Source: Spongospora subterranea f. sp. subterranea
Lineage: Eukaryota
Direction of reading: 5' to 3'
NCBI GenBank assembly: GCA_049724395.1
Contig: JAUGWO010000117.1
Span: 62,001-115,097, forward strand
Length of the DNA: 53,097 bases
In this document: in pieces, positions 39,672 to 42,973 of the stretch
Numbering within the stretch: position 1 is the stretch's first letter
How the letters are laid out: every line of letters starts with the position of its first letter
Program-made: the position numbers and the translations under genes
The notes under the pieces: model-generated
What the model saw: only the letters and a program-made list of their open reading frames with translations
What the model was told of the DNA's origin: nothing
Databases searched by the model: none

Positions 39672-42600
39672 CCCTAGACCACGGCTATTCGTAATATATT
39701 ACGAATATCACCCAGACGGACTTTTTCGGTTTTTGCGCGATTCGGGAGATATTCGTACGATTATCGTCACTGAAAATGGCGATTTTGCTGTCTTCCCAAC
39801 GGGTCATCCAAATGACTCTGACCTATTATTTAGGGTTTATCGGGATCCTATCATCCATAGGTACACTAGTCATGTTCAACAGAGTGTCAATAAAAATACC
39901 TGCTGCGCATTGCCACTGTTCTCATTGTCGGTGGATCTTCGCTTGCATGGTGGTGAAAGCAGTAGAGAAGCGTATAAATGTTTCCTCCGGTTGGACTAGG
40001 GTGGATATCCCAACATGGGAAATCGTTGATGAAGATCATTTTATTGATTCAGCAGGTGGGCCACGATATAAACATTTTTTTCAGACTGTAGTCGAGCGAG
40101 TATCCCGCAATCTAGCCAACCGACGAGTCGAGCCGTCTCGCGCCGAGATGGTGATGATGTTAATCGAACCCGCGGTGCATAGACTAGTGTCGTTTTGCAA
40201 TTCGGCAATGCCGGATAGTGTTCAACACACGAACAGTGCAGAGTATATTCGTTTGATCGCAACCATGCTTGTCCTGTCAACGTTCAAGGGATCTCCTGAA
40301 CAGAAATATGAGATCATTGATGGTCTGAAACTTTCAGTTCTGGATTATGACCGGATGAAGGAGTTGCTGAGCAGCACCCGAGCATATTCAGCTTTAGGTC
40401 GTGTCGGGTCGTGGACATGTGGTTGGGATGCGCAAGGCGACCACACGCCTAAATGCATGGAACTTGAAAGAGTCCTGTTGGAGGAGAGCCGTCGCCTCAT
40501 CGTGGACGCCGACAACGCATGGTTTGTAGTGGACGACGACTTGATCAGTTCAAGAGCACAAGATGTTCAAGTCAAGACTCTAAGCCAGAGGAAGGCTGGC
40601 AAAGAAAGGCCACACAGCTGATGTTCTGGCAGACAGCCAGACCAGAATTGTAATTGCGAGCAAGTTACGTGTCAGAGGAGCGAAGCAAGAAGAGTCAGTG
40701 GATTACCTTTTCAAACTCCTGACAGACCATCATGGTGTCTCTCTGAGATGCTGTGGAGTCACTCAAGATCGGGGATACGGAAGCCCTGACATAGCATGAA
40801 AACGGTGGAACGGGGCTTAGGCTGCGCGTTCATCATGCCCCAACATCTCATGAACTACCACCCATATTGTTCAGAATCCCAACTCCAGGCCTCGAAGGCT
40901 GCTGCTACCTTTAACAAGGCCAGGCGGCATAATTATGTCATCGACAACATTCACAACAGTGATGAGGACCTGGATAGTGATGGACAAGAGCTGGACGAAT
41001 CTGATCAAGACATACCTGGTCTGTTCAGTACTGACTTCGACAGTGAGGTCAGAATGCATTCGGAACACTGGGTGATGCCAGATGGTCCATCACTAGGGCA
41101 AGAGGTACTCGCAGCGTCGAAAAAGGTCAAGGTGTCGGGTCAGTCGAACGCTGCTCCAATGCAACTGTATGCAATTGCGGTTCGAGAGCATGGCGATCAG
41201 AAAGCCTGCAAAGTCTTGAGGTTTTATATCTCTTGGCCAAGCATTCCGTCTTTTCTCCATAACTGGATGGCCGTGTATCATCCATCATCCAAGTCCAACG
41301 CAACCAATACGATATTCTACCCTGATGATCCAACCATCGTCAAGGCTCCTGCGAGAATGGCGATTGAAGATGCCGTTTTCGGAATGTTTTATCCTTTAAC
41401 AGCTGGGCAGCGATGCTCCGACTGGTTCCAACAACGGAGCTTTCGTTGCATTGCGACTATGGCTGCATACATAATCAAGTTTCATCCGGCTGCTCAAAGG
41501 TTCCTTGTGCGCGCAGGCGTTGACGACGTTATGAACCCTCCTGATTTTGCTTCGGTGATGAGTTTGTTTGTAAAATCATGGTTTCATCGCCATTCTTCCA
41601 CCGACAGTATGCGACGAGGGACCAAGAATGAAATTCGCATCTTTGAGGCCATCTCCGACCTCGACATTATTGAACACATTTCTGAAGTTGGATTAATTCG
41701 GCATCACACGCTGGAGTGGGCGGCAGCTTCTCCCGACGCTATTGCAATAATATCGGTGAATGGAACCCAGGTTCCCTGTGTGGTTGAATTCAAGAGTACT
41801 ATCGTTGATTCCAGTGTCGACGCTGCGATCTCCATACGAAATCGCTTCGGAGCTGTGTTTTTTAAGTGTGGGAGATGACGTCTGGTGGGAAGCGATACCA
41901 GGCGAACATCGGGCACAGATTCTCCATCAAGTCTGTGTGTCGAACTTCAGCTATTTCCTGTATTGCAAAACTAGGGAAACTTCTCCTATCTACTGTGTTA
42001 TTGGCCACGTGACCAATTCTCAAAAAGAGGCATTTCTGTCCGCGTTGTCGAGCGTTGCTGATCCTGTGCTATCGTGGGCCCACAATTTGGACATCGCGCA
42101 AGACGTCGTAGTACCAGAATGGATTAACAAAAGTGAATCAGATATCATCAAGTCACAATACAGATTTTGGCGAATGATTCGAGATGAGGTTGAGCTGAAT
42201 GGACCGATGAAACCAGTCAAAACCTTCAAGCATTCTTCTCAATCGCTTTATTCCAAGGCAAAAGGTGGAGTGGATGGAGCTACAGATTATCTGGCGCAAG
42301 TGTCCTTTCCTCTCACAAATTTGCCTTTCGAGACCAAATTTGTTCTGAGATCAATTTTTATGGTAGTTATCAACGCATGTATTGTCTACAGAGTGCATCG
42401 CCGTAGAGATTTGGTTGACGAAGCCGAAATTCCCAACAGACTCTTGAAAAATTTGAAAAGGTCTGTTGCACGCGTCGAGTTAGTATCAGATTTTATCTAC
42501 AAGGCTGGAAAGGAAATGCTGATGGCAGCACCGGCGCCCTGTCAATCTTTTCAAGGACAATCGTCCAGCAATTCTCTGTTGATACAAGGATCTTTAACAA

Positions 42601-42973
42601 AAGAGGAGATTGGATATTTGCAAAAAAAAATCAGAAAAAAATTTCTCAAGCGTCATCCAGATCATACGATTGCATTAATGCATCGTGAGCGACTCAAAAA
42701 TGCCCATCCATGTGACGGCAAGCGACGATCGAGCCGAAATTGACATAAAAAAGGCTGGTCAGATATTCGTAATATATTACGAATAGCCATTTCTCCGTGA
42801 AATTTCCCTATAAAACCAAAACTCCGTTTTATGCCAACTGTGTGATGCAATTCTTTTAAAAAAATTGGAGCAGGTTTCTATTGACCATAACTCACAACTC
42901 CTAAATCCACTACTAAAATGCAGTAGGTTTAGACTATGTACAGGCTTTCAAAGAGTTACTCCGTGGTCTAGGG
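39672..42973 (+). mobile_element. piggyBac-like DNA transposon (3302 bp) with ATAT TSD
   Basis: ATAT|CCCTAGACCACGG (39672-39684) ... CCGTGGTCTAGGG|ATAT (42961-42973); perfect 27-bp internal inverted repeats at 39683-39709 and 42762-42788; encloses the transposase ORF. Confidence 0.93.
39776..42743 (+). CDS. piggyBac-like DDD transposase with inserted YqaJ/lambda-exonuclease domain (~990 codons, three 1-nt frameshifts; true start uncertain)
   Basis: D1 FVVDDDL (40532), KAGKEG, D2 TQDRGYG (40767), D3 KGGVDG (42273) followed by IN...Y; YqaJ motifs QRCSDWFQQR, MRRGTKNE, AASPDA, VEFKS, AQILHQ. Confidence 0.85.

What the first reader, a model, noticed from the sequence alone, without database searches (positions are those of the whole stretch)
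39776..42743. piggyBac-like transposase with a YqaJ/lambda-exonuclease domain inside its DDD core
Seen: joining three frameshifts gives one ~990-codon protein. The catalytic-type motifs are FVVDDDL (D1, 40532), KAGKEG, TQDRGYG (D2, 40767, in a frame missing from the ORF track) and KGGVDG...IN..VY (D3, 42273). D1-D2 spacing is 78 aa and D2-D3 is ~502 aa. That interval holds the full YqaJ motif series (Q..S.W...R, M.RG..NE, E.GL, ASPD, E.K, Q..HQ; ~41408-41990). Established: T. ni piggyBac uses D268/D346/D447 (spacings 78 and 101) with an insertion domain between D2 and D3, and YqaJ/lambda-exo are PD-(D/E)xK 5'-3' exonucleases; YqaJ is known in some other eukaryotic transposons. Inference: a two-nuclease transposase in which the exonuclease occupies the insertion-domain slot and could resect donor or target ends. 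This may be an undescribed or little-described piggyBac lineage.
Basis: partly seen in the sequence, partly recalled or inferred. Interest (0 to 1): 0.9.

Follow-up and report, generated by a model that had tools for sequence, protein, structure and literature searches.

The report
PiggyBac transposase harbouring a nested exonuclease
This is a broken copy of a 3.3-kb jumping gene whose piggyBac-type cut-and-paste enzyme carries a second, phage-lambda-type DNA-end-trimming domain nested inside its catalytic core, an arrangement conserved across a large protist and algal family that likely helps the element get copied back into the site it leaves.

Summary
Real. Window 39672-42973 is a DNA transposon with 13-bp terminal inverted repeats, a palindromic subterminal repeat and an ATAT target duplication, confirmed by empty sites in three public runs. 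Four frame pieces tile one family profile. Near-identical contigs from other samples differ by indels at exactly the three frameshifts. Full-length relatives (about 1000-1300 aa; red algae, Plasmodiophora, a diatom, metagenomes; 784 clusters at E<=1e-30, fragments included) keep both the DDD triad and the PD-(D/E)xK site. A model of one relative matches T. ni piggyBac (Z 23.0) around a lambda-exonuclease domain (Z 14.6).

This copy has also lost its C-terminal zinc-finger region, and its start codon is uncertain.

The nuclease's role is inferred: most likely it resects the donor break so the element is copied back. Ten literature searches found no description. It may still be Repbase/RepeatMasker's 'PiggyBac-X' class, which I could not consult. 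This scan noted the same architecture six times before, on other genomes.

The parts
39668..39671 (.). left target-site duplication ATAT
   Evidence: sequence; empty-site joint 39667->42974 with 4 ambiguous letters in X1, X5, X6
39672..39684 (+). left terminal inverted repeat, 13 bp, begins CCC
   Evidence: 100% complementary to 42961-42973
39683..39709 (+). left subterminal inverted repeat, 27 bp, with a perfect 22-bp palindrome (39686-39707); inferred binding site of the C-terminal zinc finger
   Evidence: role inferred from T. ni piggyBac (PMC7351741)
39965..40604 (+). transposase piece 1: N-terminal helical DNA-binding/dimerisation half-domain, beta1 with D1 (40532), omega loop
   Evidence: profile 61-277, E 6e-39; 44% to P0210; family profile matches 6x67 residues 124-220
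40602..40790 (+). transposase piece 2: RNase H core up to D2 (40767)
   Evidence: profile 276-338, E 1e-17
40808..41098 (+). beta5 and acidic low-confidence loop (start of piece 3)
41099..41284 (+). retained piggyBac-type beta-stranded insertion domain
   Evidence: strands 369-377, 385-394, 402-409 in the relative's model and the matching strands in the window piece; 378 of at most 408 piggyBac residues aligned
41387..42180 (+). YqaJ/lambda-exonuclease (PD-(D/E)xK) domain, split by the third frameshift near 41857; Q, W, R, R, E, D, E, K, Q residues all present
   Evidence: Pfam YqaJ in relatives; VIA Z 14.6 to lambda exonuclease, model 455-725; window residues
42200..42530 (+). rest of the RNase H core with D3 (42273) and C-terminal half of the helical DNA-binding domain
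   Evidence: family profile matches 6x67 437-503; 37% to P0210
42631..42637 (+). junction of an in-frame internal deletion (about 260 aa) that removed the cysteine-rich zinc-finger region
   Evidence: loose ends of other copies at 42630-42639
42637..42743 (+). true C-terminal tail and stop codon
   Evidence: 16/35 identity to P0210 1121-1155
42762..42788 (-). right subterminal inverted repeat, 172 bp inside the right TIR (asymmetric ends)
42961..42973 (-). right terminal inverted repeat, 13 bp
42974..42977 (.). right target-site duplication ATAT

Best explanation
The window holds a defective copy of a piggyBac-superfamily DNA transposon whose single transposase has a lambda-exonuclease-type domain nested between catalytic D2 and D3, and that domain likely resects the 5' ends of the donor-site break so that homology-directed repair would copy the element back into the site it left. 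Shown: element ends, ATAT duplication, one fused protein family, and conservation of both catalytic sites. Predicted: the two folds and their nesting behind the retained beta insertion domain. Inferred from T. ni piggyBac: a dimer binds the 13-bp TIRs and the palindromic subterminal repeats, cuts through hairpin intermediates and inserts at ATAT. Inferred, least secure: piggyBac-type excision leaves complementary 4-nt 5' overhangs that are normally rejoined seamlessly, so the donor copy is lost. A 5'->3' exonuclease tethered to the insertion domain, which lines the flank/target DNA channel, would remove these overhangs, expose 3' tails and force gap repair from the sister chromatid or homologue, giving a net gain of copies. 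This copy is dead in cis (three frameshifts, zinc finger deleted), but its perfect ends mean it could be moved in trans.
For: Ends and empty sites; a relative at about 27% identity also has ATAT on both sides of CCC..GGG ends (L005). Family profile hits T. ni piggyBac 6x67 at E 2.2e-5, with N-terminal, D447 and (below threshold) CRD segments in order. Model of P0001 (pLDDT 80.8, pTM 0.72): Z 23.0, rmsd 4.1, 378 aligned to 6x67; Z 20.5 to piggyBat; Z 14.6, rmsd 3.5, 206 aligned to lambda exonuclease over model 455-725. In 27 aligned relatives: D1 25 D + 2 gaps, D2 26 + 1 gap, D3 26 + 1 gap, PD aspartate 26 + 1 gap, E 27/27, K 25/27, Q/W/T of the N-terminal motif 27/27. 22 of 27 more distant long (>=900 aa) representatives keep all six catalytic residues. 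Transposase-part and exonuclease-part identities track each other (Spearman 0.90 over 406 non-independent pairs) and the trees share most clades, which fits an old, stable fusion. Family copies in the host show many internal deletions (table 5), as abortive gap repair would leave (own knowledge; not specific). Donor overhangs and the role of the insertion domain in target binding: PMC7351741 passages.
Against: No biochemical or genetic test. Substrate and polarity are inferred from the fold, and the same fold search lists Cas4, MGME1, Dna2 and herpes alkaline nucleases, which do other jobs. Empty sites carry one clean ATAT, so there is no sign of resection scars, though these are probably never-occupied paralogous sites. 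Internal deletions are common in ordinary DNA transposons too. A 280-residue domain beside the target channel could equally act on the transposon's own 5' flaps. The structural evidence comes from a relative at about 30% identity, not from the window's protein. No single window piece hits Pfam YqaJ or DDE_Tnp_1_7 by itself, and most relatives score below the Pfam cut-offs.
Confidence: 0.5

Rival explanations
1. Same element, but the exonuclease trims the short 5' flaps on the transposon's own ends (after hairpin opening or strand transfer) or clears excised and dead-end DNA, so it is a clean-up enzyme and not a copy-number driver.
For: PiggyBac ends carry a 4-nt 5' overhang after hairpin opening (PMC7351741); monomeric relatives of the fold (Cas4, MGME1, Dna2) trim flaps and overhangs (fold hits; activities from own knowledge); similar trimming roles were proposed for Dada and KolobokD exonucleases.
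Against: Canonical piggyBac works without such an enzyme, and the overhang is not needed for target choice; a processive enzyme on the element's ends would be self-destructive.
Confidence: 0.27
2. The exonuclease serves a function away from the transpososome (e.g. degrading host or defence nucleic acids, as herpes alkaline nucleases do, or promoting recombination between copies) and is fused only for co-inheritance.
For: Fold neighbours include SOX/EBV alkaline nuclease and mimivirus R354 and giant-virus YqaJ proteins; ISL2EU carries YqaJ as a separate ORF of unknown function.
Against: It is nested inside the catalytic core, right behind the insertion domain, at the same place in all relatives, not appended at a terminus.
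Confidence: 0.15
3. The domain is a catalytically irrelevant passenger or DNA-binding scaffold, or the fusion in this window is a chance insertion or assembly artefact.
For: The window's copy is broken; YqaJ Pfam scores are mostly below cut-off.
Against: Intact fused ORFs in many independent clusters with D, E and K nearly invariant at 25-45% overall identity; other samples lack the frameshifts.
Confidence: 0.05

Closest known systems
Trichoplusia ni piggyBac / Myotis piggyBat transposases (PDB 6x67, 9c0f; Pfam DDE_Tnp_1_7)
   Same: DDD triad with D1-D2 spacing 77-79 aa, split helical DNA-binding domain, beta insertion domain, C-terminal Cys-rich finger (in relatives), 13-bp TIRs beginning CCC, asymmetric palindromic subterminal repeats, 4-bp palindromic target duplication
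   Different: about 280-aa exonuclease plus an acidic loop between D2 and D3 (460-557 aa instead of 101); ATAT instead of TTAA; protein about 1000-1300 aa instead of 594
'PiggyBac-X' / piggyBacX class of RepeatMasker, Dfam and Repbase
   Same: The label is applied to repeats of Plasmodiophora brassicae (bioRxiv 10.1101/2025.07.30.667784, one passage), whose genome encodes the closest named relative. I recall, without a call, that Repbase lists piggyBacA and piggyBacX as ATAT-target lineages from algae and protists.
   Different: Unknown: no definition could be read, and whether its transposase is described with an internal exonuclease was not checkable
Lambda exonuclease / YqaJ family (PDB 1avq, 3sm4; LHK-Exo 3syy; Pfam PF09588)
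   Same: predicted fold Z 13.8-14.6 and the full Q-W-R..T, R..E, S-P-D, E-x-K, Q motif series
   Different: embedded in a transposase; oligomeric state unknown
KolobokE, ISL2EU and Dada transposons
   Same: DDD/E transposons that carry an exonuclease: KolobokE a lambda-exonuclease-like domain downstream of the transposase (PMC9587614), ISL2EU YqaJ in a second ORF (PMC4122938, PMC4482050), some Dada a DEDDy exonuclease inside the DDE core after the second D (PMC3706591)
   Different: other superfamilies; none of the passages read has a PD-(D/E)xK domain nested inside a piggyBac-type core

Membership tests
piggyBac superfamily | RNase H-like DDD transposase homologous to T. ni piggyBac | tested here: met
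   profile hit to 6x67 E 2.2e-5; VIA Z 23.0, rmsd 4.1, 378 aligned; D1/D2/D3 present in the window
piggyBac superfamily | 12-19-bp TIRs with CC..GG termini, often with subterminal inverted repeats | tested here: met
   13-bp TIR and 27-bp subterminal IR; definition in PMC5381638 passages
piggyBac superfamily | 4-bp target-site duplication | tested here: met
   ATAT on both sides; empty sites with one ATAT
canonical piggyBac (PBLE) | TTAA target | tested here: not met
   ATAT here and in L005; ATAT called rare among 157 PBLE
canonical piggyBac (PBLE) | D2-D3 about 100 aa with only a three-stranded insertion | tested here: not met
   460-557 aa in 34 of 40 long relatives; the 6 other rows (one cluster) were mis-parsed by the pattern
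piggyBac superfamily | C-terminal cysteine-rich domain | tested here: inconclusive
   first CxxC in 24 of 27 relatives, weak zf-Tnp_2 hits; deleted from this copy
piggyBac superfamily | hairpin intermediate and seamless excision | not testable with these tools
   needs biochemistry
YqaJ / lambda exonuclease | PD-(D/E)xK active site with the lambda-type motifs and fold | tested here: met
YqaJ / lambda exonuclease | 5'->3' exonuclease activity; toroidal trimer (lambda type) | not testable with these tools
   no assay possible
piggyBacX / PiggyBac-X (Repbase, RepeatMasker) | similarity to the reference piggyBacX transposases and their described architecture | not testable with these tools
   Repbase/Dfam not held; the review I recall was not held; only the label was seen
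KolobokE / ISL2EU | RR..YY termini with TTAA (Kolobok), or two ORFs with THAP (ISL2EU) | tested here: not met
   CCC..GGG ends, ATAT, single ORF, piggyBac fold (definitions)

The most novel reading that the evidence does not exclude
A widespread protist and algal piggyBac lineage, not yet described in print, whose two-nuclease transposase abolishes seamless excision: the nested exonuclease resects the donor break and turns cut-and-paste into a self-amplifying, homing-like copy-back cycle at ATAT sites.
Probability: 0.25. Interest if true: 0.85.

Novelty: new variant of a known kind. Interest (0 to 1): 0.58.

Why it matters
PiggyBac is a standard genome-engineering tool, known for footprint-free excision at TTAA. 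A natural lineage that targets ATAT and carries a conserved second nuclease inside its catalytic core shows that the piggyBac scaffold tolerates a 280-residue enzyme next to the target channel. It also offers a single-protein system for a standing question: why several unrelated eukaryotic DNA transposons (ISL2EU, KolobokE, KolobokD, Dada) carry exonucleases whose function is unknown, and how cut-and-paste elements gain copies. One point mutant of an intact algal relative would test it.

Tried and rejected
Pfam on the window's three long pieces gave no YqaJ or transposase hit; the hits come only from intact relatives. phmmer of P0001 against PDB sequences: 0 hits; the profile was needed. AlphaFold of the window's own piece 3 was low-confidence (pTM 0.42, exonuclease truncated by the frameshift), and its fold searches gave nothing meaningful: uninformative. 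The three-copy complex job for the exonuclease domain returned 'no answer' (score 0.00). No relative was found in viral contigs (0 of 20 pattern matches). No RNA holder is listed on record. ESM Atlas gave no answer. No whole genome is held, so copy number was not counted. Of 11 metagenome loci only L005 showed both ends; L003 showed a left end, and the rest were cut short or unclear. The shuffle control for 17-mer inverted repeats is weak by itself (10 of 300 resampled sequences had any; the real region has 24 k-mers), so the empty sites are the real proof of the ends. A ubiquitin-like 'LRLHGG' word in another frame near 39950 was found in none of 40 long relatives and was dropped. Rejected: two separate genes, Kolobok or ISL2EU membership, and pure assembly error. 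Literature: 10 searches found no description of this architecture. Repbase, Repbase Reports, Dfam and the review I recall (Kojima, Genes Genet Syst) were not held. No supplements were read; those of PMC5381638 (TSD and element lists) may bear on ATAT-target and red-algal piggyBacs.

Full report
Observation. A profile built from 27 full-length relatives is tiled in order by four frame pieces of the window (profile 61-277, 276-338, 346-658, 697-957; E 6e-39 to 1e-17 to 3e-64), and nothing else in the window scores. The window's pieces alone hit neither YqaJ nor a transposase family in Pfam.

The element. Repeat finding shows perfect 13-bp terminal inverted repeats at 39672-39684 and 42961-42973, each flanked by ATAT. 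There is also a 27-bp subterminal inverted repeat with a 22-bp palindrome, overlapping the left TIR and lying 172 bp inside the right one. T. ni piggyBac has 13-bp TIRs and asymmetric 19-bp internal repeats (PMC5381638, passages), the palindromic one bound by the Cys-rich domain (PMC7351741, passages). Contigs of three of four laid runs (X1, X5, X6) join 39667 to 42974 with four letters fitting either side. That is an empty site with one ATAT, which fixes the element at 39672-42973 (3302 bp) and the duplication at ATAT. The flanks are themselves deep-covered repeats, so these are probably paralogous never-occupied sites. One distant relative with both ends in view (L005, 1 of 11 loci) also has ATAT on both sides of CCC..GGG ends.

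State of this copy. Near-identical contigs in X5 and X6 (0-2 other letters) differ from the window by small indels at 40605, 40794 and 41857, exactly the three frameshifts; X7 does so at the first. X1 matches the window without gaps over 39996-41164 and with one unplaced gap over 41143-42567. So at least two breaks are real in that sample, which may be the window's source, and in-frame alleles exist elsewhere. The copy has also lost about 260 codons in frame near 42631-42637. Its last 35 residues match residues 1121-1155 of the Plasmodiophora relative P0210 straight after residue ~862, the Cys-rich domain is absent, and other copies have loose ends at that place. Homology starts near 39965, so the start codon is uncertain.

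The family. Two searches gave 2 and 27 relatives of 724-1301 aa. A profile search gave 4863, 2744 and 784 clusters at E<=1e-3, 1e-10 and 1e-30, fragments included; the weaker tiers will include ordinary piggyBac or YqaJ proteins, and only the best 150 were seen. Named sources among 30 looked up are Gracilariopsis chorda (red alga), Plasmodiophora brassicae (closest to the window, 36-44% per piece), Fistulifera solaris (diatom), Hondaea and two marine protist transcriptomes. Pfam places YqaJ in the middle (24 of 25 proteins at E<=0.5, 8 of them at or above cut-off), with DDE_Tnp_1_7 end segments around it in 8 of 25. Both catalytic sets are conserved: D1 25, D2 26, D3 26, PD aspartate 26, E 27 and K 25 of 27, the misses being gaps except two K>E. 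22 of the 27 new representatives of 900 aa or more keep all six residues, and the window keeps them all. D2-D3 is 460-557 aa in 34 of 40 long relatives; 6 rows were mis-parsed. Trees of the two parts share most clades (pairs not independent), which fits one old fusion.

Structure. The family profile hits T. ni piggyBac (6x67) at E 2.2e-5 and, weakly, LHK exonuclease (E 0.39). AlphaFold2 of P0001 (pLDDT 80.8, pTM 0.72) matches lambda exonuclease best by Foldseek (E 1.6e-4). By VIA-align it matches 6x67 at Z 23.0 (rmsd 4.1, 378 aligned, model 39-854), piggyBat at 20.5, lambda exonuclease at 14.6 (rmsd 3.5, 206 aligned, model 455-725) and Tn5 at 14.3. PiggyBac's insertion domain is three strands at 372-433 after beta5. 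The model has three long strands at 369-409 before the exonuclease, and with 378 of at most 408 piggyBac residues aligned, at least 32 of the 62 insertion residues must be matched. So the exonuclease is added behind a retained insertion domain rather than replacing it. Viral structure hits are YqaJ proteins of phages and giant viruses; no donor can be named from that.

Mechanism. Cutting and pasting by the piggyBac hairpin route at ATAT is inferred from homology and from the ends. In piggyBac the donor site is left with complementary 4-nt overhangs that rejoin seamlessly, and the insertion domain lines the channel that holds target DNA. A lambda-type 5'->3' exonuclease (activity from own knowledge of the family) fixed at that domain would most simply act on the donor flanks, block rejoining and drive gap repair that copies the element back. 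I put this at about 0.5, flap or clean-up trimming at 0.27, and an unrelated role at 0.15. Many internally deleted copies in the host fit gap repair but are not specific.

Known or new. Exonucleases ride on other eukaryotic DNA transposons: ISL2EU has YqaJ in a second ORF of unknown function (PMC4122938, PMC4482050, passages), KolobokE has a lambda-like domain downstream (PMC9587614, passages and first part of the Discussion), and some Dada elements have DEDDy inside the DDE core (PMC3706591, passages). Ten full-text searches and passages of PMC6431247, PMC4455052, PMC10045372, PMC5753468 and PMC5718144 gave no piggyBac with an internal PD-(D/E)xK domain. However, a preprint labels P. brassicae repeats 'DNA/PiggyBac-X' (10.1101/2025.07.30.667784, one passage), and I recall, without a call, piggyBacX and piggyBacA as ATAT-target Repbase lineages. 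I give roughly even odds that the lineage is already catalogued there; whether its exonuclease was noted is unknown. This scan noted the same architecture six times on other genomes (unchecked AI notes, not support).

Verdict. A real, structurally well-supported variant of the piggyBac superfamily, seen here in a dead copy. Function of the second nuclease untested. Interest 0.58.

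Noticed in passing
window 31234-36975 and 47158-53091: Large inverted duplication (97-100% identical, many small indels) that frames the region holding the transposon; it includes ordinary-looking genes and part of a retrotransposon.
   Followed up: no
window 36234-38979 (-) and 46581-47994 (+): Degenerate LTR-retrotransposon pieces: gag with zinc knuckle, protease-like segment, integrase.
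   Followed up: partly
window 39400-39671 and 42974-43200: The insertion target is itself a high-copy repeat: much deeper contig cover than the element, and many variants.
   Followed up: partly
window 20845-21854: About 29 copies of a 35-bp tandem repeat at 95-98% identity.
   Followed up: no
window 43740-44800: Broken ankyrin-repeat-like coding sequence with a 310-bp tandem duplication just right of the element; ankyrin identity judged by eye.
   Followed up: no
window 6518-29887: Ordinary eukaryotic genes: F-box (6518-7579), PUF repeats (10217-11464), PI-PLC-X (14898-17003), FYVE (29063-29887).
   Followed up: no
window 39755 and 42958: Other copies carry extra copies of the subterminal palindrome motif at these places (8 letters at 39755 in X5/X6; 33 letters at 42958 in X6/X7/X8), so intact ends may have more zinc-finger binding sites than this copy.
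   Followed up: no
P0200 (Hondaea, 2180 aa) and P0156 (Fistulifera, 985 aa): Relatives with lost catalytic residues, or fused to another annotated domain; possibly host-domesticated.
   Followed up: no
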